NCBI GenBank assembly: GCA_905178155.1
Contig: CAJINV010000074.1
Coordinates: 1-11,952 of the forward strand
Direction of reading: 5' to 3'
Source: Amoebophrya sp. A120
Taxonomy: Eukaryota; Protista; Dinoflagellata
DNA: 11,952 nt
A program made the position numbers and the translations under genes. Under the pieces are notes generated by a model that ran no database searches, was not told where the DNA came from, and saw only the letters and a list, made by a program, of their open reading frames with translations. Positions 1 to 11,952 of this stretch are shown here, in pieces (position 1 is the stretch's first letter; each line of letters starts with the position of its first letter).

Positions 1-41
1 GCATCACAAGTTTCCAGACCCAGACATTTTTACATTTGATA
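1..41. mobile_element. Element 1, family A, right end only (truncated by the window)
   Basis: TTCCAGACCCAGACATTTTTACATTTGATA at 12-41 matches the family A right TIR. Confidence 0.85.
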
Positions 42-3000
42 GCTGTCCTGCGAAAACGACTCTCCCCGGGCAAATTTTTCCGACGCGGCCAGGTATTATC
101 CTGAGGAAAAACGTGCCCACCCCATAGTCAAGTTGGGATTGGGAACTTAGCAATACAAATCCAGAAGTTTTGGGAGCACCGCATGACAAGTTGCAGTCCG
201 TAGGTTGTAGTGCAGGTTAGCAACGGAAACCGCATCAAAAATCCATCTGCTTATCGTGTGTCCGGCATTACAAATACCAAAACACGACTGGAAATGCCTC
301 TCTTGGGGATGCGCACTGCAGATGTTCCTGTAGTCGCAAATCTGCATGACAACTCTGGGGTGGGGACATTTTTACACAGAATACGTATTTCGCCAGGTTT
401 CGCCCCGTCAAAACGTAGGCGTCGCGAATCGACTGGGAAAAGGACACTTGCCCGTATTTCTTGAAAATCAAGGAGAAAGCGCTTTGGTCGTCGTTGTGAT
501 TCTTAAACCCCGGGAAATTCGGAAACCCCAATACGTTCGGCTCTTCTGTCAGAATCCGTTTATCCTGCACGGCTTCCAACCACTCTTCTAGGATTTTGAT
601 CGCAAGGGGAGTCTTGCGCACGAGAATGATGCCGGACCCAATTTGATTCGATTCGGCGATGGTGGTGTAGTCCATGTTGAGAATATGGGAAGAAAAAAGC
701 ATTACAGTTACACACTGTGATGTTGCAAGACCGGCACCACAGACAGCCTTTCTCATGCAGGAAATGCTTTGGATTCTCATTCCCTTCCTGTGTTCCACCT
801 TTATGTTTCCTGCATTCCAAGTTTTCTCTCTCATGCAGGGAAAATTTGTGCTGCGGAATTGACAACAAATGTGTAACTCTAACTGTAACACTTTTTTCGT
901 GGGATAGAGAAGGAGGAACGCGTCGCGCTTCGTGAAATCGCCCTCCATCATGGGGTATCAACTGCAAAAGTGTCTGGGTCTGGAAACTTGTAATGCTGTG
1001 TCGGGAATAGTGAAAGCTCTGTAATGCACAGGCAAGCATGAGAAATATCTGCGCTTCTTCGTGTTGCGTTTTTCGCATGACAAACTGCGTTTTCGCATGA
1101 CAGGCAAAAGGGTCTGTCTCTTCTTGGACACGCATCACAAACTTTTCGGTCATGCCAGACAAGCATGACAAATCTCGCAATCTTCCAGACCCACACGTTT
1201 TTGCATTTGATATCGGGGTTAAGGTGGCGGACACGTCGGAACCCCGGAGGTAGCGGGCTATGAAGTGCAAATATGTCTGGGTCTGGAAGGATGCAAGTTT
1301 TGTCATGCAGATTTTGTATGATCCATGCCGCCTGTGATGCATGACCTAGCATGATCGCAGCTTTTGAGGGAGCTTCCTTATGCATATGCCTACTTAATCC
1401 GCATGAGAAATGCCATCTCCGTGTAGCAGAAGCAGTAAACTGGGCTCCTGTTGCCAGTCATACAATACAGATTTTTTTACGATCCAAGGACAGCATCACT
1501 AGTTGCAACGTTCCAGACCCAGACATCTTTGGAGTTGATACGGGCGACTAACGGACGGATGTCGTCGAGAAAGGAGATGCCTGGTAGAAGTCGACGGTGT
1601 AATTCAATCTAAAAATCAATATCAAATTCAAAATCGTACAGAAAAAATAAGTGCACAGTAGAAGCCAAGCTAAAGCCAGCTAATCTTTGTCAGGCAATTA
1701 TTAATCTTCTTTGTGTTGAAAGTCAGCATCGCACCGGACGAAGGGGTGCATTTGTGACTTTTCAAATGTTGTCATCATGATAGTTAAAAATCCGTACAAC
1801 TAAACATAGACGAAAGTTTGTTGAAAGAACCGCTCTATATTCATTTTTCAGATCTCGAATCTTTCTGATAGTCACCACACAATAGCAGCGGATGGCGAAA
1901 AAAGCCTCCCGCTCCTGATTGTCAGAGACAAAATGCGTGGTATCTCAAAAAAGTGTCATCATGCGAGGTGGCACATGTGGTCGTATGGTCCTTGCGGTTG
2001 CGTCGATTCTTTACGTATAATATAAAGCAGAGCAGCTGTGACTAACGAAAAGTGGCGAGAATGTATAGCAGATGAGAAGCGAACAGGTGCAACTGAATCT
2101 ATTAACTATCCGCTGCTAGAAAAACTAAAACTTTATTTCCTTGCATGATTTTCATTTTTGGATCCTGCGCACGATATGATAGAGATAGACATTGAACAAG
2201 TAGTTGTCATAGATTGATAAGAGGTCAGTACAACTTCCGCCAGGAGACAAAGAACGTATCTATCATGTGAAAATCTGTAAAATCATACCTGCGTCGGTCC
2301 ACACGAGTATTTCATTTTCCTTCACTTTCTCCCTCAAGGCCTTGAGAATCACGTACGGTTTCCAAACGTAGTACCCCACTTTCCCGCTCGGCGTTTTGTA
2401 CTGGGTCAGCTCCTATGAAATGCAAAAGTGTCTGGGTCTGGAAGAATGCAAGTTTGTCATGCTTATCTGGCATGACTCGAGAATCTGTGTTGCATAGGCA
2501 CGACAGGGCCCTCTTACCTGTCATGCAAAAACGCAGTTTGCCATGCGGAATACGTAAGACATGGCAGCCAAAAAATTTGTCATGCGTAGCTGCGTGCTGC
2601 AGTGCGTCTATCATTCACTTTTAGCATTACAAGTTTCCAGACCCAGACATTTTTGCATTTGATAGCTCCGGAGTGCGGACGTACTCTAGAAGCTCCTTAT
2701 TTTTCACTATCCTGGGTAAAAACGTCCCCACCCCAGCGTCAAGATGGGGAACCTGTGACGCAAATCAGCCAGCTTCGGCTGTTCTTGCGCATGACATCAA
2801 GTTTGGCCTCGTAGTGTAAAAATCCTGTGCGTTTAGCTAGTTCACCAGCGTCACAGATCTGAAATCGCATGCTGATTGGAGCATCACACGAGGACCCGAG
2901 ACTCAATTATAGAAAATGCTTCTCATGGGGCTCCGCATGAGAAACATTTCAAGCATGCAGATTTGCATGACAACTATGAGGTGGGGAAGTTTTTCTTCAG

Positions 3001-6000
3001 AATATTCGCCGTGAACTCTTCATCCAGATCTTCGGCCACCATCCCGTAGGAAATGTCGCACTTTCCGACGGCCACTGCAGTTTCGGAGGATTTTTTCTGG
3101 TCCTCTTCACAGCAATTCATGGCGAAATTTACATGGACAATTCTCTCGTTGGTCAGGAACTCGGACCCCGGCGGCGTGAAGGAAATTTCCGTTTTTGTAG
3201 TAGCCGCGGGAAGAAGAGAATTCGCCCACGCGGCCTGTTTTTTTTTTTTTTTTGGATATGATGTTGATCCACCTGCTGGATGTCCCGGTTGACAAAAGAG
3301 CCCGAACAACCGATCGCGACTCCAAACAAAAGCAGCCGAACTCACGCCAGAAATACCGTCCGACTTTCATCGTGTTTGACCTTTCCACCTCTTCAAAATG
3401 TATCGCATTGAAAAGCTTTTGTTGCTGCCTTCACAACACACAGCGCCCGCGCCCAGAAAAAACCCGAATCAGGTGCGGTTTGTCTCTACGAGTGCGCACT
3501 TGCACACGACTTGAGGAGGTGTTGGGAAGGCAAAAAGCAACCCAAAATCCTGCCAGAAATGCCGTCCGAGTCAGCTCGTGTTTGACCTTTCCACCTCGTG
3601 GAAATTATCACAGAGAAAAGTTTATGTTGCGGCATTCACAAAGACAACAGATCGCGCCCACGAAAAACCCGAATCAGGTGCGGTTTGCCGACAAGGGCGC
3701 GCACTTGCACATGACTTGAGGGGGTGTTGGGAAGGGAAAAAGCGACCCGAAGTCCTTCCAGAAATACCGTTCGACTCCCCTCGTGTTTGAGCTTTCCACC
3801 TCTTGAAAATTATCGCATTGAAAAGTTTGTGTTGCGCGCTTTTCTTTTCAATAGCAATTTATTTTGAAAATTGGCCAGGGCCGGGCGGGACTGCAATGTT
3901 CCCGAAAAAATTGAAAGAAAACGAACCTCGTGTATGAGCGTGCACAGGCGGCTGGCAGGAACGGCCAAGACAAAATTCGGGATGAGGTCGTTTTTGCAAA
4001 ATTGGCGATAGCCGTGCCTAGCAAAATGCATTGAAAAATTCAAAAAAGACGCGCCTCGCGGGCGAACCCGGACAGGCGCGCGGCAGGAACGGCTAAGACG
4101 AAATTCGCGATGAGGTCACTTTTACAAGATTAGCGATAGTGTCACCATTAAAAATGCACTGAAAAATGGAAAAAACACGCACACTGCGTTTGAGGTCGGC
4201 CGGGTCACCGGCAAAAAGTGCAGACCTCAAGAACACCAAAAAGCCCGCCCGTGCCCTCCCCCGACCGCGGCTATCCGGAGCAAAGCCTTTGCGTTTGCCC
4301 GAGCAAATGATAATGATCTTCTATAGGCCACAAAATAAGACGAATGCGTGGCAACACAACAATGAAGCAGTTGTACTTCTTTCCCATATCATGTTGACAA
4401 ATACCTTTTTCTTCTTTCCCGAAGTTCTACTACCGCCCGCTGGACCTTCGGAGTTGTCTTTTCTCCTCACAATTTTCGTCCCAGTGCTGGCAGCACTGCT
4501 GACCCACTCAAACGCCGCCTTCTCCCCGTCTTTCTCCACCGAGGTTATCAGCGGCGTTTATGCATTGCAAATGTGTCTGGGTCGTCTGGAAACTTGTGAT
4601 GCTGGGGGCGTATCATGAGGAGGCCACAAGTGCTGGCTCAGCATGACAAGTATCTGAGCTCCTTCTACATGTTGTCTATTCTGCATGACAAACTGCGTTC
4701 TTTCTGCATGACAAAATTATGGAGCTCTTGGGTAATGTGCACGAGAGATTTAAGAGTCAGGCCAGACAAGCATGACAAACATGCATTCTTCCAGACCCAG
4801 ACATATTTGCACTTGATAGCGTTGCGTCCCGGACGAAACACTGCCGGTCGTTCTGCTCGAACAGATATCCTCTGCAAAAGCATCGTACTTGTAGTAATCG
4901 CATTTATGCATGACAAATATCTTTTTCAAGGTAAATCAACATGAGAAATTCAATTTGTCATGCTGAGCAAATTTGTAATGCGATTACTACTAGATCTAGA
5001 ACTAGTGCGATGCTTCTGCATTTCATAACAGAGCCGCTTCGTTCGCCGCGGTCGCGTGTAGCACGTTCTCGATGTTTGGTCCGTCGCACGTCACGCCGCC
5101 ATATCAAATGTAAAAATGTCTGGGTCTGGAAGACTGCAAGATTTGTCATGCTGATCTGGCATGGCCCTTAAATCTGTATTGCGTGGCCACAAACAGCCTC
5201 TTCCGCCTGTCATGCAAAAACGCAGTTTCTCATGCGGAATAAGCAGCACAGAAGCACGAAGCAACTTGTCATGCTTGACGGCGCATTACAGTGCATTTGT
5301 TATTGACTGACTTGCATCACAAGTTTCCAGACCCAGACATTTTTGCATTTCATACACCACACACGTCCGCACCCAGCTGCGCGCACAGGTTCATCGCGTG
5401 CTTCAACGATTTAAACTTGTAGTCCTCGAGATTGACCACGCTGCCCGCAAGCGAAACCTTGTCGTGGATTGCCCAACCGTTAATGTAGCGCGACGTTGTA
5501 CTAGCACTTCTTGGGGCGGATGAAGTAGAACCTGTTCCAGCTGCAGCAGTTCTTGTGCCACTACTGCTCTCAACAGAGGGAGGCACAGTCGAACTACTGC
5601 TCCCTACTCGAGTTGTGTAAGAATCCGTTGGGTAAGAAGCGGAAGGCGATACGAGAGAGTTCCACTGCTCGACGTAGCCCTTATGCATTGCAAAGGTATC
5701 GCATTCGTATAGATTTAAATGCATTGCAAATTGAAATTTCCTCAGCATTTGTAATGCATATTTGCCTTGGAAAAAAGATTTGTAATGCAAGACTTGCATT
5801 TGTATGAGTACGATACTTTTGCACAGGATAGCCCTCCATCGGGGTAGTCACGTTCCCGGGCGTGCTATGACAGTGCACAACTTTCCCTCCCCCTCACTTG
5901 TCATGCAAAATCCCAAATCCAGTCGCTCTCGCTTCCCTGTGGCTCTGTTTGCATGAGAAATTTCGAAAACCCAAACAGTACTACAGTAGGCACATAAATT

Positions 6001-9000
6001 TGCAATGCACGGGCTCCAGGGTCGCTGGCGTTTGTATTGCTGTTCATGCGATACACATGAGAGGGAGGGGGAGTTGTGCAGTGTCATACGTGCTCGGTGC
6101 GGCGTAGTAGGACTTCCAGGTCCGTCTTCGGGGCGACACACTGGACCTCGACACCCGGATCGGGTGGTTTGCCGGGCCGATATGCGGTTCTCAGGCGTTG
6201 CACTCTCATGATTTGTCATGCAAAAAGACTATCACTCGTCACACGATCAAGCCTTCTTCGCATGCCAACTTCTCGCTGCGCTAAATACCGCCAGAACAAT
6301 CTGTCCGCCAAAATCTGTAATGCAAAAGGCGCAAGAATCTACTTCCTCCTTTCACTTTTGCCATTCTTGCATTACAAATTCATGATGTAACTGAGAATCT
6401 TCCCATAGCCGATGGTCCCGCTGTAGAGGATATCGTAAATCCGGTGTCGCTCATGTTCCGACATGAGTTTTTGAAGCGAGAAAAACACGATGTTCTCAGA
6501 TTTCCCAAACCACCCGTCGGTAGTGACGAACGTGTTTTCCGATTCGTAGAAGTGGATGAAAAACAAGTGGTAGTGAAGAAAATCGTCCTCTGCGAAGGAA
6601 ACCGTCGGCACCCGATCCGTCATGAAGGGGCCGAAACAGAGCCGGTCTAAAGCCCGCGGTAAGTACGTGAATGGGAAGAAGTAAACCAGGGACAACAAAT
6701 CGGTCAAAAACAGCAACCCGCGGTTCGATCCTTTCACGGCTAACAAGTCCATCCCTCGGGTTTTGTGCGGATTGAAGAATTCCGTTTCGACATTGACGTC
6801 CTTTACCCACAGGTAGGGGAACGGATTCCGGACCCAGAAGTGACTGATAGAAACGTACGCCATGTCCATCCCTGCGAGAACGCCGATCCGCATGTAGCCG
6901 AGAACGGACAAGAAGCTGGAGGATTCGGACAACTTCGGTAAACACATGTATTTCTCCAAAGTGTGGTCCAGTTTGGACAACTGCCCGGACGCGACCGACT
7001 TGCACTGCAAATCCAGGCTGTTCTGCTGTTGCGGATCACTGGACAACACGATCCCCAACCCCCCCTGCTTCATACTGTATTTCGCCCGGCGGAGCCAGTT
7101 TTTCAACCAAGTAATGCTCCCCTTATCGACGCTGGTCAAGACGATCCGGTTATTTCGCTGAATTTTCGACAACCGCCAGTAGATCTCGTTGTTGTCCTCT
7201 TTGGTGAGCACCCGCTTCTGCAGGATCTGGGCCTGCATTTCCTCGGTTATGGACGATTGTGGGATAACGTTGACGGCGTGCGGTTTGGCTTGACTGGAGT
7301 TGGGGTCTCCGGAGGAGTTCTGTGCGCTGCTATCTGTGTTCGCATTGCTTGGGTGCACCGGGTAGTCGCTACTACCGTCATTTTCGTTGTAAAATTCGTC
7401 TTCATCTTCCGGTTGCTTAGCCGATACAGACGGTGTGGTGGCGTCCGAGACAGAGCCAGAGGCCGCTATATTCCCACCGGATGATAACGGCATCACCGCT
7501 TCGTCTCGTATGATCCCCGTTTCGCCCTCCGTCCCCTCGTTCTGGTAGTCTGCGTTGTATCAAATGCAAAAATGTCTGGGTCTGGAAGAATACAAACTTG
7601 TGATGCGCATTTCAGCACACAGAAAAATCTCTGATGCATAGGTAGCAAAAGCTGCCCACTTTCTGTCACCAAAGTGGGGGATTTGTCGTGCGCAGTCGGC
7701 ATTGCGGAAGCTTTTCGAAACCTGTGATGCTAGAGCTTCCATGCCAGACCTTCTGCGTCATGCAAAAACAGCATGACTCTTGCAGACCCAGACATTTTTA
7801 CATTTGATACGTTGGAGACCGCTTCCATTTCCATGGGTTTTTTGATCAACTTAATGATCGACTCTTTCACCTGTTCGGTGTAGAGCCCCATGTCACCCAC
7901 CCGCCAGTCCCAGGGGTTCTTCGAATCCATATATTTCGGTGGAGAGTCTAAATCGTCGGTCAACGCCGCTTCCGGCAGATCCAATTTTTGCTTCTTCATC
8001 TCGTTCAATAGATGAACAATCCCAAAGAGCCGCCAGCGGGAATACAGCAATTGGTGCTTCCGGTTCCATATAAAATGCAAATATGGCTAGGTCTGGGAGC
8101 TTGTGATGCAAGGAAGGGAATTATAGGGAGCACACTGATGCATTATTTAATGCGCTGCCAAGCATGACATAGTTTTTCCGTGGTTCTGAGTTGCGTACTC
8201 CGCATGAGAAACTGCGGCTTTGCATGACACGGAAGAGGAGCTCATCTTCGCGGCCACGCAGTACAAAGCTCAGAGTCAACATGCCAGACCAGCATGACAA
8301 CTCTCGCTACCTCCTACCAGAGCACCCAGACATATTTGCGATGCTTATTCCAGATCTGCTCGATCTGCTGGAATCCCCGCTCCAACATGCGGTAAACATC
8401 GCCGTCGGAAAGTAGTATCGCGAACATGCGGAGCGCGTTGGCGGCGATAACGCCGAATGGACACTGGTTGATGACGTCGGAAATGGTGGAGGAAGTCGCA
8501 CTATCAACTGCAAATAGAAATATGTCTGGCTCTGGAAGAGTGCAAACTTGTATTGCGTGTCGAGGAGTCCAGAAAAATCTGTATTGCATGAAAGCAACAA
8601 AAGCGCCACAGTTTGGTGATCAAAAAATACAGTCTGTAATGCGTACTAAGGATGAGAATGCTACACTACTCTTACAGACGCAGTCACTCATGGCCATTCA
8701 GCATCACAAGTTTCCCGACCCAGACATTTTTGCAGTGCATACGCACTGTGCTCTACACTGCTCTGCGACTTGAAGATCACCCCGTCCGCGTGGCTTATCG
8801 CCCACCCGTATCCTGTGTAAAGACGTCTCCTCCCCAGGGTTGTCATGCAAATCTGCATGCTGAAAATGTTTCTCATGCGGAGCCCCATGAGAAGCATTTT
8901 CCAGTGGTGTTTTGGAATTTGTCATGCTCCAATCAGCATGATATACTAGATCTGTGATGCTGCTGAGCTAGCTCAAACAGCATTGCACTACGGGTCCAAA

Positions 9001-11202
9001 TTTGTCATGCAAAACAGCCAAAGCCTGTGGATTTGCCTAGCCGAGTCCCCATCTTGACTATGGGGTGGCGAGGTTTTTGCATAGGATAACCCGAGGCTGG
9101 TTCGGTCGGTTTTCGTTTTCTTTTCCAACAGCCACTCGTTCGCTTCGGTCTTTCCATTGCAAACATGTCTGGGTCTGGAAACTTGTGATGCAAGGAAGGG
9201 AATAATGATCTCACTGTAATGCGCTGCCAAGCGTGCCATGTTTTTTCGTGGGTCTGAGTTGCGCATCCCGCATGAGAAGCTGCATTTTTGCATGACAGAG
9301 AGGAGGAGCTCTTCGCGGCCACGCAATACAGAGCTTAGAGTCATGCCAGACTAGCATGCCAAATCTCGCAATCACCCAGACCACCCAGACATATATGCAT
9401 TTGATACGGTCACCCCCGTCGCCAAAGCCCCCCGGAACTCGTTCCATTCGATCACATTCGGGTCGGGAGATAAGATATGAACTGCAAAAGTATCGCACTC
9501 GTACTAATTACATTTATGCATTACAAATCTTTTTCTTACTCTTAGGGTAAATCTGCATGGCGAATTTAGTTTGTAATGCTGGGCTAATTTGTGATGCAAT
9601 TTATACTAGTACGATGCTTTTGCTTTGCATATAAGATGCAGTCGTCGGCGTTGTCGTCTTCTAAAAAAGTTGGCTTCCCGGTCGCGGAGTCCACGCTGTC
9701 CCAGATTTTCTGTTGCTCAATGTCGAGAAGCTTCAACACCGGCCATTGGGAGGACATGAGAAGGTAGAAATCGGTCGGGATGTGGTAAAAGCAATCCCGG
9801 ACACTGTCCATCGACTCCGCGCCCACGCTATGCTGTGCAAAAGTATCGCACTCGTATAAATGCATTACAAATCTCCTCAGCATGAGAAATAAAATTTGTA
9901 ATGCGAAATTGCCTTAAGAACAGGATTTGTAATGCATGAGTGCAATACGAGTACGATACTTTTGCACAGGATACACGCAGGCGACGAGTTTTCCCAGCGG
10001 GCACCCGGGGATTTGCATATCACATGCAAAAATGTCTGGGTCTGGAAGAATGCAGACTTGTCATGCATATTTCTCATGACCCATGACGCCAGTAATGCTT
10101 GACCTAGCATCGCAGACTTTTAGAGGGCTTCCTGATGCACCTTCCGCATGAGAAATGCCCTGTCCGTGTAGCAAAAACTAAAACTATCCCCCTCTTGCTG
10201 GTCATGCAATACAAATTTTTTTAGAGTCCAAAAACAGCATGACAAGTTGCAATCTTCCAGACCCAGACATTTTTACAGTTGATATTGCAAGGCGTAGCGG
10301 GAAACGTGGTAGTCGGGGGGTTCGTTTTTCGCCACCGCGTCGGAAACGAGGTTGAGGTATTTGGTCCAAAAGGGGTCTTCTCGTACGCAATCGGGGTCGT
10401 AGAACTGCCGCCCGACGTTCGTAGCGGACGCGGTTGTTGCGACAAGCAGGGATAGTACTGGCAGGAGATGTATGAAATGTAAAAATGTCTGGGTCTGGAA
10501 GGTTGGAACTTGTCATGCTAAATCTGAATCATGTAAAAATCTGTGTTGCATGAGTGCCAAAAGCTGTCCAGTTTTGACCTAATCGAGAGGCAGTTTCTCA
10601 TGCAGGATAGGCATGATAGAACTCTCACGGAATCTGTCATGCTATGTCCTCCATACCAGAACTCATGGGTCATGGAAAACCTGCATGACAAGTCTGGCAT
10701 TCTTCCAGACCCAGACACTTTTACATTTGATAAGATGCTGGAGTAGTCCCCTGCTTGCACATAGGAAAAATGTTGATCCACCACGACCTATTGCTCCTCT
10801 TCTTGGTTTTTTCCTTCGTCCGTTCGTCTGACAGTCGTTCCTGTGGAAGTTGTCCACCTGCTCGTCCCGCGATAGCATTTCTCGGTCGTGTAGGCCCCCG
10901 CTGCATCTTGAAGAAGATGCAGTCATCTTTGTGCAATTGGCACAAGAAGTAGCTCTCGCAGGCGCGGTTCTTGCAGAAGCCGCAGCACTTGTAGCTGTAG
11001 TTGCTCTCCTCTCAGCTGAACAAGACGAGGTAGGACTAGTACGAGAGACGACCATGCGACAGGAGGTTTCATCCACGACCCCCAACATCGCCGCTCGCTT
11101 CCGACGTTTGCGTCTTGCAGTAGAAGCTCCGCCTGTTGTTCCGCCAGGACAAGAACTGCGTGAGGACAGTGTAGATGATGGTGATGCAGCTCCTGTACTC
11201 AT
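42..11202 (-). CDS. Large 24-exon gene (at least 1390 aa, 3' end beyond the window): probable membrane-anchored multi-domain glycosyltransferase-like protein
   Basis: Exons in transcript order, each including both flanking TSD copies (one 5-bp copy is dropped per element): 11202-10733, 10470-10285, 10017-9974, 9828-9632, 9475-9407, 9150-9089, 8808-8742, 8501-8348, 8068-7810, 7557-6408, 6180-6089, 5865-5831, 5681-5355, 5101-5028, 4865-4819, 4558-4405, 3234-3005, 2707-2665, 2413-2289, 1580-1541, 1258-1213, 955-907, 683-384, 96-42. Total 4275 - 21x5 = 4170 nt = 1390 codons with no stop. The ATG at 11202 is in AAAATG context with an in-frame TGA two codons upstream. Junctions rebuild coherent sequence, e.g. 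LLQHL|LPVLSLLV, CAQLGADVCG|GVTC, EEFTA|KNKELL, VWTDA|GISFLDDIRPL, FTKRDAFLLL|NMDY. Confidence 0.9.
97..383. mobile_element. Element 2, family B introner/MITE, 287 bp
   Basis: TIR TATCCTGAGGAAAAACGTGCCCACCCC ... GGGGTGGGGACATTTTTACACAGAATA; TSD GGTAT/CGTAT (1 mismatch). Confidence 0.88.
684..906. mobile_element. Element 3, family D introner/MITE, 223 bp
   Basis: TIR TATGGGAAGAAAAAAGCATTACAGTTA ... TAACTGTAACACTTTTTTCGTGGGATA; perfect TSD GAGAA; removal gives FTKRDAFLLLNMDY. Confidence 0.9.
956..1212. mobile_element. Element 4, family A, 257 bp
   Basis: TATCAACTGCAAAAGTGTCTGGGTCTGGAA ... TTCCAGACCCACACGTTTTTGCATTTGATA; TSD TGGGG/TCGGG (1 mismatch). Confidence 0.9.
1259..1540. mobile_element. 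Element 5, family A, 282 bp
   Basis: Family A TIRs; perfect TSD CGGGC. Confidence 0.92.
1581..2288 (-). other. Canonical GT-AG spliceosomal intron, 708 bp
   Basis: Donor CAG|GTATGA at 2289/2288 and acceptor TTCTACCAG|GC at 1581/1580; AT-rich; splicing rebuilds ILVWTDAGISFLDDIRPL. Confidence 0.88.
2414..2664. mobile_element. Element 6, family A, 251 bp
   Basis: Family A TIRs; perfect TSD GCTCC. Confidence 0.92.
2708..3004. mobile_element. Element 7, family B, 297 bp
   Basis: TATCCTGGGTAAAAACGTCCCCACCCC ... GAGGTGGGGAAGTTTTTCTTCAGAATA; TSD TTCAC/TTCGC (1 mismatch). Confidence 0.88.
3346..3839. repeat. Diverged tandem repeat, about 205-206 bp unit, about 2.4 copies
   Basis: CCAGAAAT(A/G)CCGT...CGTGTTTGA(C/G)CTTTCCACCTC recurs at 3347, 3553 and 3758; AAAAACCCGAATCAGGTGCGGTTTG is present in both full copies. 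Confidence 0.9.
3944..4182. repeat. Diverged tandem repeat, 128 bp unit, about 2 copies
   Basis: ACAGGCG...GGCAGGAACGGC(C/T)AAGAC(A/G)AAATTCG(G/C)GATGAGGTC...AAAATGCA(T/C)TGAAAAAT starts at 3944 and 4072. Confidence 0.85.
4559..4818. mobile_element. Element 8, family A, 260 bp
   Basis: Family A TIRs, the left one with a 3-bp duplication (GGGTCGTCTGGA); perfect TSD GCGTT. Confidence 0.92.
4866..5027. mobile_element. Element 9, family C, 162 bp
   Basis: TATCCTCTGCAAAAGCATCGTACT ... AGTGCGATGCTTCTGCATTTCATA; perfect TSD ACAGA. Confidence 0.92.
5102..5354. mobile_element. Element 10, family A, 253 bp
   Basis: Family A TIRs; TSD CGCCA/CACCA (1 mismatch). Confidence 0.9.
5682..5830. mobile_element. 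Element 11, family C, 149 bp
   Basis: TATGCATTGCAAAGGTATCGCATTC ... GAGTACGATACTTTTGCACAGGATA; perfect TSD GCCCT. Confidence 0.92.
5866..6088. mobile_element. Element 12, family E, 223 bp
   Basis: TATGACAGTGCACAACTTTCCCTCCCCCTCA ... TGAGAGGGAGGGGGAGTTGTGCAGTGTCATA; perfect TSD CGTGC. Confidence 0.92.
6181..6407. mobile_element. Element 13, family F (degenerate TIRs), 227 bp
   Basis: TATGCGGTTCTCAG...CATGATTTGTCATGCAA ... TTGCATTACAAATTCATG...CTGAGAATCTTCCCATA; perfect TSD GCCGA; removal keeps the frame (SGTIG|PANHP). Confidence 0.85.
6620..7160 (-). other. Degenerate nucleotide-diphospho-sugar transferase (GT77 / PF03407-like) domain
   Basis: IVLTSVDKGSITWLKNWL...IVLSSD...C...GMDMAYVSISHFWVRNPFPYL...LLAVKGSNRGLLFL follows the GT77 pattern (NW...D...C...GxDxxxxDxDxxWxRNPFPYL), but has SIS where DxD is expected. 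Confidence 0.55.
7558..7809. mobile_element. Element 14, family A, 252 bp
   Basis: Family A TIRs; perfect TSD CGTTG. Confidence 0.92.
8069..8347. mobile_element. Element 15, family A (degenerate TIRs), 279 bp
   Basis: TATAAAATGCAAATATGGCTAGGTCTGGGA ... CCCAGACATATTTGCGATGCTTA; perfect TSD TTCCA. Confidence 0.88.
8502..8741. mobile_element. Element 16, family A, 240 bp
   Basis: Family A TIRs, the left one with a short insertion; perfect TSD CGCAC. Confidence 0.9.
8809..9088. mobile_element. Element 17, family B, 280 bp, inverted relative to elements 2 and 7
   Basis: TATCCTGTGTAAAGACGTCTCCTCCCC ... GGGGTGGCGAGGTTTTTGCATAGGATA; perfect TSD ACCCG. Confidence 0.92.
9151..9406. mobile_element. 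Element 18, family A, 256 bp
   Basis: Left end TTTCCATTGCAAACATGTCTGGGTCTGGAA (TTT instead of TAT); perfect TSD CGGTC. Confidence 0.9.
9476..9631. mobile_element. Element 19, family C, 156 bp
   Basis: TATGAACTGCAAAAGTATCGCACT ... AGTACGATGCTTTTGCTTTGCATA; perfect TSD TAAGA. Confidence 0.92.
9829..9973. mobile_element. Element 20, family C, 145 bp
   Basis: TATGCTGTGCAAAAGTATCGCACTCGTA ... TACGAGTACGATACTTTTGCACAGGATA; perfect TSD CACGC. Confidence 0.92.
10018..10284. mobile_element. Element 21, family A, 267 bp
   Basis: Family A TIRs; perfect TSD TTGCA. Confidence 0.92.
10471..10732. mobile_element. Element 22, family A, 262 bp
   Basis: Family A TIRs; perfect TSD AGATG. Confidence 0.92.
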
Positions 11203-11439
11203 TTTTCAGCACTGTGGCGCGGCCCCCGAAGCCGTGCTGCTAATTATTTTTACAAGTGTTTCGGCTTTAATACAGCAACGCTCCATGACAGTTGGTTGTT
11301 GCAGCGGCCATCTTGCTGCGAAGAGAGCGGGCGCACAGGTAAGAAAAAAGCGCAAGGGGTCTAGATGTAGATGATGACTCGGGCCGACAATAGAAACATG
11401 CACGTGGTGATCTTACTTTTACTGAACAAGCTAGAGCAG

Positions 11440-11952
11440 AGAAATCTGCATTGATGCGGATTCGATCTTGCATCTAAACGAAAAGCCAAAAAAAGTAGTC
11501 TTTTTCCGGGCTACTAGTTTTCGACTACTTTATTTCCCACCACGCCCAGAGGAAAGAAAACCAGCCGAAGAAATGGCCACATCATTAACAGAATCCGCTC
11601 GGGGAAAAATTATCTCTAGAATCTGCATTGCAGATTCAATACTCATCTTGCATCTACCGAAAAAGAGAGGCCAAAGCAACCAACTTTTTTTCTCGCCGCG
11701 AGTTTTTTCTCCTCGCCGCGAGGAGAAAAAACCGCCCGAAAAAGTGGCTCGTCGACGTCGATAAGTATCCTCTACAAAAAAATCTGCATTGCAGGTTCAA
11801 TCTTGCATCGATCTAACGAAAAAGAGAGGCCAAAAAAGGTCCCGCAATTTCTCGCCGCGAGTTTTTGTGCCCCGCCGCGGGGCGAAAAACTGCAGCCCCG
11901 GAAGGGGCCCTCCCCCCGGAATCCGCTCGGGGAAAAGTCTCCTCTACAGAAA
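11440..11952. repeat. Diverged tandem repeat upstream of the gene, about 160-177 bp unit, 3 copies, likely continuing past the window
   Basis: AATCTGCATTG...ATCTTGCATC...CGAAAA recurs at 11443, 11620 and 11781; GAATCCGCTCGGGGAAAA occurs twice; units carry palindromes. Confidence 0.85.

What the first reader, a model, noticed from the sequence alone, without database searches (positions are those of the whole stretch)
1..10732. One intact gene interrupted by 22 TIR/5-bp-TSD elements that must be removed without GT-AG splice sites
Seen: 21 complete elements, each bounded by inverted repeats and a 5-bp direct repeat. Deleting element plus one repeat copy restores one 1390-codon frame at every junction and rebuilds recognisable motifs. 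No placement of the junction within the TSD gives GT-AG generally: the element ends read TAT...ATA and the TSD sequences are arbitrary. Known: introners are transposon-derived introns (Micromonas, Aureococcus; these use GT/GC-AG), and non-canonical introners with inverted and direct repeats were reported in Amoebophrya (Farhat et al. 2021, BMC Biology); to my knowledge the removal machinery there is unresolved. Inference: this genome has a precise, non-GT-AG removal system that works like reversal of transposition, acting on RNA or, like ciliate IES excision, on DNA.
Basis: partly seen in the sequence, partly recalled or inferred. Interest (0 to 1): 0.92.

Follow-up and report, generated by a model that had tools for sequence, protein, structure and literature searches.

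The report
Transposon introns spliced without GT-AG
A gene of a marine parasite, likely Amoebophrya, is interrupted by 21 complete mini-transposons without normal splice signals, which an assembled transcript lacks (20 checked by length); this oddity is already published, but mismatched repeats here point to a likely fixed cutting position for the still unknown removal machinery.

Summary
The minus strand carries one gene with 21 complete TIR elements (145-297 nt, 5-bp target duplications, 17 perfect) plus a partial 22nd. A 4761-nt contig from an RNA-like run matches the model 'element + 5 nt removed' at 8 of 8 checkpoints spanning 20 elements; DNA contigs keep the elements. The orthologue is an Amoebophrya A25 protein and the ends fit the published A120 introner motif, so the phenomenon is known (Farhat 2021). 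Added here: three mismatched duplications allow only one uniform cut, after the fourth duplicated base (intron = N-TAT...ATA-NNNN), not at the transposon tips; and in-frame GT-AG pairs at 5 elements are not used. This favours RNA splicing measured from the symmetric TIR ends, most likely by a modified spliceosome (inferred), over reversed transposition or DNA excision. The register rests on three junctions in one contig. The scan noted a similar single case in Prorocentrum cordatum (unchecked).

The parts
42..11427 (-). Host gene: 24 exons in the window, Met at 11202, 1390 codons to the window edge, frame continues beyond position 1; C-terminal region weakly like a nucleotide-sugar transferase
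   Evidence: orthologue P0002 754 of 1152 aligned residues identical
11203..11427 (-). Transcribed 5' leader (the contig begins at 11427; three upstream ATGs at 11399, 11311, 11286)
1..41 (.). Right end of element 22 (incomplete; second duplication copy outside the window)
97..383 (.). Element, duplication mismatched at transcribed position 5; informative for the cut
684..906 (.). Element, perfect 5-bp duplication
956..1212. Element, duplication mismatched at position 4; junction not displayed
1259..1540 (.). Element, perfect duplication; unused in-frame GT-AG pair 3 nt shorter
1581..2288 (-). Canonical GT-AG intron, 708 nt, begins GTATGA
2414..2664 (.). Element, perfect duplication
2708..3004 (.). 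Element, duplication mismatched at position 2; informative for the cut
3235..4404 (-). Canonical GT-AG intron, 1170 nt, begins GTATTT, holds 205-bp and 128-bp tandem repeats
4559..4818 (.). Element, perfect duplication
4866..5027 (.). Element, perfect duplication
5102..5354 (.). Element, duplication mismatched at position 4; informative for the cut
5682..5830 (.). Element, perfect duplication
5866..6088 (.). Element, perfect duplication; unused in-frame GTATGA...TAG pair 3 nt shorter
6181..6407 (.). Element, perfect duplication, weak TIR (9/20)
7558..7809 (.). Element, perfect duplication; removal of exactly element + 5 nt seen directly between two adjacent contig pieces
8069..8347 (.). Element, perfect duplication, right end TTA instead of ATA
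8502..8741 (.). Element, perfect duplication; unused in-frame GT-AG pair
8809..9088 (.). Element, perfect duplication; ends not predicted to pair in register
9151..9406 (.). Element, perfect duplication, left end TTT instead of TAT; unused in-frame GT-AG pair
9476..9631 (.). Element, perfect duplication
9829..9973 (.). Element, perfect duplication; unused in-frame GT-AG pair
10018..10284 (.). Element, perfect duplication
10471..10732 (.). Element, perfect duplication; removal of exactly element + 5 nt seen directly between two adjacent contig pieces

Best explanation
The elements are short inverted-repeat insertions with 5-bp target duplications that stay in the DNA and are absent, each with one duplication's worth of sequence, from an assembled transcript; they are likely cut from the pre-mRNA one base before the 5' TAT and four bases after the 3' ATA, most likely by a modified U2-type spliceosome that would read the symmetric repeat ends instead of GT and AG. 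Shown: anatomy, retention in DNA, exact length of removal, both orientations tolerated, no GT-AG. Inferred from three junctions: the register (intron = N-TAT...ATA-NNNN). Inferred only: that U2 and A3 of the 5' end are read like those of a normal donor with position +1 free, that an invariant A at -7 or -5 is the branch point, that the 3' cut is set by distance from it (helped by the end-to-end hairpin), and that the elements spread as non-autonomous DNA transposons.
For: RNA-like contig (run X3, 4761 nt, 0 other letters in 8 pieces) fits element+5 at 8 of 8 checkpoints, offsets 0, against up to 20-60 nt off for +2, +4, +6, +8; it also lacks both GT-AG introns, and X3 has no depth in the intron-only and intergenic bins. 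Only k=1 reproduces all 8 piece ends; k=0 fails at 385, k=2-5 fail at 5355, k=4-5 also at 3005. At 97-383, k=1 gives Leu as in the A25 orthologue, k=0 gives Val. In that register +2 T and +3 A are 21 of 21, +4 T 20 of 21, +1 free (G8 A5 C5 T3); -7 A and -5 A are 21 of 21. Both canonical introns of the same gene begin G-TAT and have A at -5. All 18 'predominant' non-canonical sites in Farhat Table S4 have T at position 2. In-frame GT-AG pairs 3 nt shorter exist at 5 of 21 elements; using any one shifts the offsets by 3, observed 0. Related elements lie in both orientations. 83 of 89 spliceosome proteins and U2, U4, U5, U6 were found in A120, U1 was not. Precedents: spliceosomal removal of TIR-derived non-GT-AG introns in Fritillaria and fixed branch point at -8 in Entamoeba invadens.
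Against: The register rests on 3 informative junctions in one contig and on how the tool extends pieces; the fourth (956-1212) was not displayed. The DNA contig over 354-662 has one letter unlike the window, which could be base 384, the only base that excludes k=0; the Leu match offsets this only partly (the other orthologue has Met). Different elements could use different cuts. 18 of 20 elements are checked only as sums over 2-5 elements, where opposite errors could cancel. X3 is only guessed to be RNA by the tool. No branch, lariat or spliceosome dependence was tested; arbitrary first and last intron bases are hard to reconcile with the usual G+1/G-1 contact of the second step (established knowledge, recalled). 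-8 is G in only 10 of 21, so the -7 A fits YURAY poorly in half. The T at position 2 in Table S4 may partly reflect aligner preference; annotated A120 family boundaries are mixed in the 22 of 58 rows seen. Orthologue scores prefer +5 over both +2 and +8 at 18 of 21 junctions for P0002; 4866, 5682 and 8502 score better with another length.
Confidence: 0.55

Rival explanations
1. RNA-level removal by a non-spliceosomal, structure-guided endonuclease/ligase (or a separate machine as proposed for euglenid nonconventional introns): the TIR hairpin is recognised and cut with a 1-nt 5' and 4-nt 3' overhang, then exons are ligated.
For: Ends are predicted to pair in register (P at least 0.89) in 18 of 21 elements (z -3.7 and -3.8 for two folded elements); first and last intron bases are arbitrary; GT-AG pairs are ignored; U1 not found in A25/A120 but found in an Amoebophrya with mostly GT-AG introns; euglenid introns with TIR pairing leave as circles (review).
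Against: 3 of 21 elements (8809-9088, 6181-6407, 8502-8741) are poorly predicted to pair in register yet fall in intervals removed exactly; the 5' end N-TAT matches the donors G-TAT of the two canonical introns in the same transcript; pairing follows from transposon origin alone.
Confidence: 0.3
2. Elements are excised from DNA in the transcribing life stage, like ciliate internal eliminated sequences.
For: The anatomy (TIR plus one retained duplication) suits DNA excision; only one DNA sample was examined and its joint table was swamped by repeats (15 of about 1729 joints shown), so rare element-free DNA is not excluded.
Against: In DNA run X1, 7 element-exon borders of 6 elements are bridged by at least 31 letters each side in the 8 pieces shown, at depth 38-49, like unique sequence (about 45), with no element-free joint among those shown. 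The element-free contig lacks the GT-AG introns too. Positions 2 and 4 of the duplication both come from the upstream copy, which a symmetric deterministic DNA cut would not give (weak, two sites). No germline/soma split is known in these parasites, so excision would be inherited (recalled, inference).
Confidence: 0.05
3. Exact reversal of transposition: a transposase-like enzyme cuts at the TIR tips (k=0 or k=5), on RNA or DNA.
For: Net product equals the pre-insertion site at the 17 perfect duplications; k=0 fits 7 of 8 piece ends.
Against: k=0 fails at 97-383 (piece ends at 385, not 383; Val instead of the orthologue's Leu) and k=5 fails at two junctions; no transposase was reported in A120.
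Confidence: 0.06
4. Ordinary spliceosome using nearby cryptic GT/GC-AG sites, or a dead gene copy.
For: Frame-keeping GT/GC-AG pairs exist within 30 nt of 20 of 21 junctions.
Against: Offsets and piece ends of the transcript contig match element+5 with no shifted borders; 684-906 has no such pair; the gene is 65% identical to its orthologue over 1152 residues without a stop.
Confidence: 0.02

Closest known systems
Introner elements (IEs) / non-canonical introns of Amoebophrya sp. A120 (Farhat et al. 2021, PMC7789003)
   Same: IR motif TAT + 7 nt + AAA (34 of 42 ends here), 5-bp direct repeats, mean length 238 nt here against 240 nt for A120 non-canonical introns, mixed genes with canonical and non-canonical introns, RNA-supported removal, Amoebophrya orthologue.
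   Different: Nothing that sets these apart. The paper leaves the border position 'unknown' or 'variable'; here a single register is inferred, and unused in-frame GT-AG pairs are shown.
A120 introner families in Gozashti et al. 2025 (PMC12130899)
   Same: TIR DNA elements, tens of introns in one gene, detected duplications of 2-5 nt.
   Different: Their automated calls of which splice site is carried or co-opted differ between families (22 of 58 rows seen); no fixed register given in what I saw.
Non-canonical introns of Fritillaria borealis (seen through PMC11282704 and bioRxiv 2025.08.15.670264)
   Same: TIR/TSD transposon origin, non-GT-AG ends, coexistence with conserved GT-AG introns; spliceosome adapted.
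   Different: They have preferred ends (AG-AC, AG-AT); here first and last bases are arbitrary.
Euglenid nonconventional introns (seen through PMC11282704)
   Same: TIR pairing a few bases inside the borders with unequal overhangs, TSD-like repeats, unknown machinery.
   Different: Pyrimidine|purine borders are not enriched here (12 of 21 and 13 of 21); different motif; circles not tested.
Ciliate internal eliminated sequences (recalled)
   Same: Transposon-derived, removed precisely leaving one repeat copy.
   Different: Here elements stay in the DNA examined; the repeat is an arbitrary 5-mer, not TA.

Membership tests
Amoebophrya A120-type introner element | Splice borders other than GT-AG | tested here: met
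   0 of 21 give GT-AG or GC-AG at any of 6 placements
Amoebophrya A120-type introner element | 8-20 nt inverted repeat joining the two ends | tested here: met
   9-19 of 20 matches, at least 13 in 19 or more of 21 (8069 was scored there with a wrong end); predicted pairing in 18 of 21
Amoebophrya A120-type introner element | 3-5 nt direct repeat across the borders | tested here: met
   5 nt, 17 perfect and 4 with one mismatch
Amoebophrya A120-type introner element | IR motif TAT + 7 nt + at least three A | tested here: met
   34 of 42 ends against the text
Amoebophrya A120-type introner element | Repeated through the genome | tested here: met
   families within the window; 37,025 contig pieces of DNA run X1 laid, summed depth up to 265,624 in element bins against about 45 in unique bins (not a copy number)
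Amoebophrya A120-type introner element | Removal supported by RNA | tested here: met
   X3 contig, 8 of 8 checkpoints; run type is the tool's guess, backed by absence of both GT-AG introns
Amoebophrya A120-type introner element | Host is Amoebophrya | tested here: inconclusive
MITE / non-autonomous TIR DNA transposon | TIRs, constant-length target duplication, short, no coding capacity | tested here: met
   145-297 nt
MITE / non-autonomous TIR DNA transposon | Cognate autonomous element or transposase with the same ends | not testable with these tools
   no genome held; none reported in A120; superfamily not assigned (one search gave nothing usable)
U2 spliceosomal intron | GT/GC-AG termini | tested here: not met
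   available GT-AG pairs unused
U2 spliceosomal intron | Branch-point adenosine and lariat | not testable with these tools
   candidate invariant A at -7 and -5 only
U2 spliceosomal intron | Dependence on U2/U5/U6 snRNPs | not testable with these tools
   components present by homology
Euglenid-type nonconventional intron | Pyrimidine|purine borders | tested here: not met
   last intron base pyrimidine 12 of 21, first base purine 13 of 21
Euglenid-type nonconventional intron | Excised as full-length circle | not testable with these tools
   no raw reads of this gene available (X9)
Ciliate-type internal eliminated sequence | Element-free DNA in the expressed nucleus | tested here: inconclusive
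   one DNA sample keeps the elements; other stages not examined

The most novel reading that the evidence does not exclude
Amoebophrya has a splicing mode that uses neither terminal dinucleotide: it anchors on the symmetric transposon ends and cuts by ruler, one base before TAT and four bases after ATA, so any such transposon in either orientation at any exon position becomes a perfect intron, even overriding in-frame GT-AG sites. In the boldest form this is a second, spliceosome-independent RNA cutting and joining machine.
Probability: 0.3. Interest if true: 0.9.

Novelty: already known. Interest (0 to 1): 0.5.

Why it matters
The elements are a published class, but how they are removed is open. 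Mismatched target duplications act as natural markers of the cut; applied genome-wide to existing RNA reads they would settle the border that Farhat et al. left unknown. A fixed N-TAT...ATA-NNNN register names candidate signals (U2-A3 donor mimic, A at -7 or -5) and separates a relaxed spliceosome from a new RNA ligation system. Either answer would show how a cell makes exon insertions of a transposon harmless and so gains tens of thousands of introns.

Tried and rejected
No genome is held, so no transposase, snRNA or genome-wide register search. Run search: no RNA holder listed on record; 8 holders in 2 studies, four guessed RNA; the best DNA holder may be the window's own source and is not independent. 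X9 (raw RNA reads, same species label) gave 191 partial reads on element ends only and no exon cover: no evidence on this gene. X7 is shallow and gapped. First model had a wrong end for 8069-8347 and a wrong acceptor for the 708-nt intron; corrected. The interval list omits 9476-9631 by a boundary slip; it belongs to the 9631-7810 interval (5 elements; 20 in all). Pfam on 11 exon peptides, PHROGs on both orthologues, PDB sequences and Rfam gave nothing significant; hirudin and helicase hits are chance-level. The protein atlas did not answer. No G bias at duplication position 5 (8 of 21), so no sign of selection for GT donors. Selection on perfect duplications considered and not claimed: 4 mismatches in 105 positions cannot be told from drift without insertion ages. 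Superfamily assignment (hAT5, IS3EU, integrase-like) considered from memory; not supported by any search. Look-ups of earlier scan notes by place and by sequence were empty. A search for a Yarrowia branch-point precedent found no paper.
Full report
1. Observation. The window holds 21 complete elements of 145-297 nt (5008 nt in all) and the right end of a 22nd at 1-41. Each has terminal inverted repeats and a 5-bp flanking direct repeat: 17 perfect, 4 with one mismatch; 19 of 21 read TAT...ATA. A strict pattern finds 14 in the window and 0 in 200 Markov controls. On the minus strand, removing each element plus 5 nt and two further GT-AG introns (1581-2288, 3235-4404) gives 1390 codons from Met 11202 to the window edge. 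Other lengths break the frame except +2 and +8. No placement inside the duplication gives GT-AG or GC-AG in any of the 21.

2. The gene is real. Two homologues were found among 59 and 3697 candidates: P0002 (Amoebophrya sp. A25, 1423 aa) and P0001 (743 aa, source label only). The model aligns to P0002 with 754 identities over 1152 residues; +5 scores better than both +2 and +8 at 18 of 21 junctions, and the three exceptions (4866, 5682, 8502) lie beside alignment gaps. Function is weakly indicated: PF03407 nucleotide-diphospho-sugar transferase at E 0.012, below cut-off.

3. RNA and DNA. One search listed 8 holders in 2 studies; I laid 4 of 11 runs. In X3 (RNA by the tool's guess) one contig of 4761 nt, depth 22, lies on the minus strand in pieces; 8 pieces are shown, with 0 other letters. 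Their record offsets equal the element+5 model at 8 of 8 points and depart by up to 20 nt for +4 or +6 and 60 nt for +2 or +8. This covers 20 elements: two singly (10471-10732, 7558-7809), the rest as sums of 2-5. The contig also lacks both GT-AG introns and X3 has no depth in intron-only and intergenic bins, so it behaves as mRNA. In DNA run X1, the 8 pieces shown bridge 7 element-exon borders of 6 elements by at least 31 letters, at depth 38-49, like unique sequence. The joint table was swamped by other copies (15 shown, 1714 not), so element-free DNA was not searched exhaustively. X1 may be the source of the window.

4. Where the cut lies. Call k the number of duplication bases left at the intron's 5' end. 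At perfect duplications k cannot be known. At mismatched ones the mRNA shows which copy gave the base. Modelling exact extension of each piece, only k=1 reproduces all 8 observed piece ends: k=0 fails at 385, k=2-5 at 5355, k=4-5 also at 3005. At 97-383, k=1 gives Leu as in P0002, k=0 Val; P0001 has Met. So the single uniform rule is: four duplicated bases from the upstream copy, the fifth from the downstream copy; intron = N-TAT...ATA-NNNN. Limits: three junctions, one contig, an assumption on how the tool extends pieces, the fourth junction unseen, and one unlocated differing letter in the DNA contig over 354-662 that could be base 384. Element-specific registers are not excluded.

5. What that register shows. 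+2 T and +3 A are 21 of 21, +4 T 20 of 21, +1 is free; -7 A and -5 A are 21 of 21, -6 T 20 of 21; the last four bases are free. The two canonical introns begin GTATGA and GTATTT and have A at -5 (n=2, one is a poly-A run). Five elements offer an in-frame GT...AG intron 3 nt shorter, one with the same GTATGA donor as the canonical intron and a TAG acceptor; using any one would shift the offsets by 3, and none is seen. Related elements sit in both orientations, so the signal must be in the symmetric ends. Ends are predicted to pair in register in 18 of 21.

6. Mechanism. Shown: elements stay in DNA, leave the transcript with exactly five extra bases in sum, without GT-AG. Inferred: fixed register. 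Most likely (0.55) a modified U2-type spliceosome reads the TA of the 5' end, tolerates any first base, branches at an invariant A near the 3' end and cuts by distance. Grounds: the donor likeness, both intron kinds in one pre-mRNA, a nearly full spliceosome without detected U1, the Fritillaria precedent and fixed branch points in Entamoeba and others. Rival (0.30): hairpin-guided non-spliceosomal cutting and ligation as suspected in euglenids. DNA excision (0.05) and tip-to-tip reversal of transposition (0.06) fit poorly. RNA-level removal overall about 0.9.

7. Comparison with what is known. Farhat et al. 2021 describe non-canonical introns with inverted and 3-5 nt direct repeats in Amoebophrya A25 and A120, 29,850 repeated ones in A120, with an IR motif of TAT, seven variable bases and three A, mean length 240 nt, and borders 'unknown'. 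Here 34 of 42 ends fit that motif and the mean length is 238 nt. All 18 predominant sites in their Table S4 have T second, in line with k=1, though aligner choice may contribute. Gozashti et al. 2025 show tens of introners in single A120 genes; their family table has mixed boundary calls in the 22 of 58 rows seen. So this is a member of a published class by every feature testable here except naming of the organism, which rests on the orthologue and the motif. It is not a U2 intron by its termini, though it may work like one.

8. In print? Searches found no paper that fixes the cut position or tests lariats for these elements; subscription journals are mostly outside the library, and figures were not visible. 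What I saw: PMC7789003 abstract, passages, sections 16 and 36, supplement passages and Table S4 rows, no figures; PMC12130899 passages and supplement rows (files 13-14 not searched); PMC11282704 passages and section 6; PMC11453091, PMC12005148 and bioRxiv 2022.06.08.495308 passages; bioRxiv 2025.08.15.670264 abstract and outline (preprint supplements not seen). Henriet 2019, Huff 2016 and Roy 2023 were seen only as cited. Ciliate excision, the G+1/G-1 contact and transposon superfamily ends are recalled. Farhat's Figures 3 and S19-S23 could already show the register.

9. Earlier scan notes. One note (e1-7693921) reports a single similar element in Prorocentrum cordatum; I did not check it and it did not change my reading.

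10. Verdict. Real, already known as a class, mechanism open. The register and the ignored GT-AG pairs are the useful additions; they are thinly powered but directly testable on existing reads. Interest 0.5.

Noticed in passing
window 3235-4404: The long canonical intron holds a 205-bp tandem repeat (2.4 copies, 3346-3836) and a 128-bp one (1.9 copies, 3944-4180); each 205-bp unit has a TAT+7+AAA-like motif (3401, 3606, 3811), and a 13-nt direct repeat with one mismatch lies near both intron ends (about 3255-3267 and 4385-4397). Possibly old nested insertions.
   Followed up: partly
window 1581-2288: The 708-nt canonical intron has flanks GCAG|G and CCAG|G and ends CTA-CCAG: it looks like a decayed element whose duplication happened to be NNAGG, which in the k=1 register yields GT-AG. 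AG|G is also the usual splice context, so this is weak. A TIR-like motif sits at 1620.
   Followed up: partly
all elements: A 7-8 nt motif GCAT(G/T/C)ACA and its reverse occur 64 times in elements and once outside, mildly polarised between halves: likely binding sites for the mobilising enzyme or the removal machinery.
   Followed up: partly
window 11440-11952: Upstream, untranscribed repeats of about 170 nt spacing, multi-copy in the DNA run (depth 284-560 against 45).
   Followed up: no
window 11427-11432: The transcript contig starts 3 nt downstream of an AG on the minus strand, a possible spliced-leader acceptor; the leader holds three upstream ATGs.
   Followed up: no
window 10471-10555, run X9: Raw RNA reads of another sample with the same species label carry a 90-95% similar element end joined to different flanks (63 and 167 reads) but no exon of this gene: related elements occur in RNA of another isolate.
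   Followed up: no
window 42-11427: Ten of 22 internal exons are 30-62 nt; elements with their duplications take 5113 of about 11,200 nt of the gene span, while one exon of 1145 nt has none.
   Followed up: no
Farhat 2021 text and Table S4: The A25 IR motif begins TTA-purine-purine and its top sites all begin TT: read from the first T this also has T at +2 and A at +3, suggesting a shared donor mimic in both strains (my inference).
   Followed up: no
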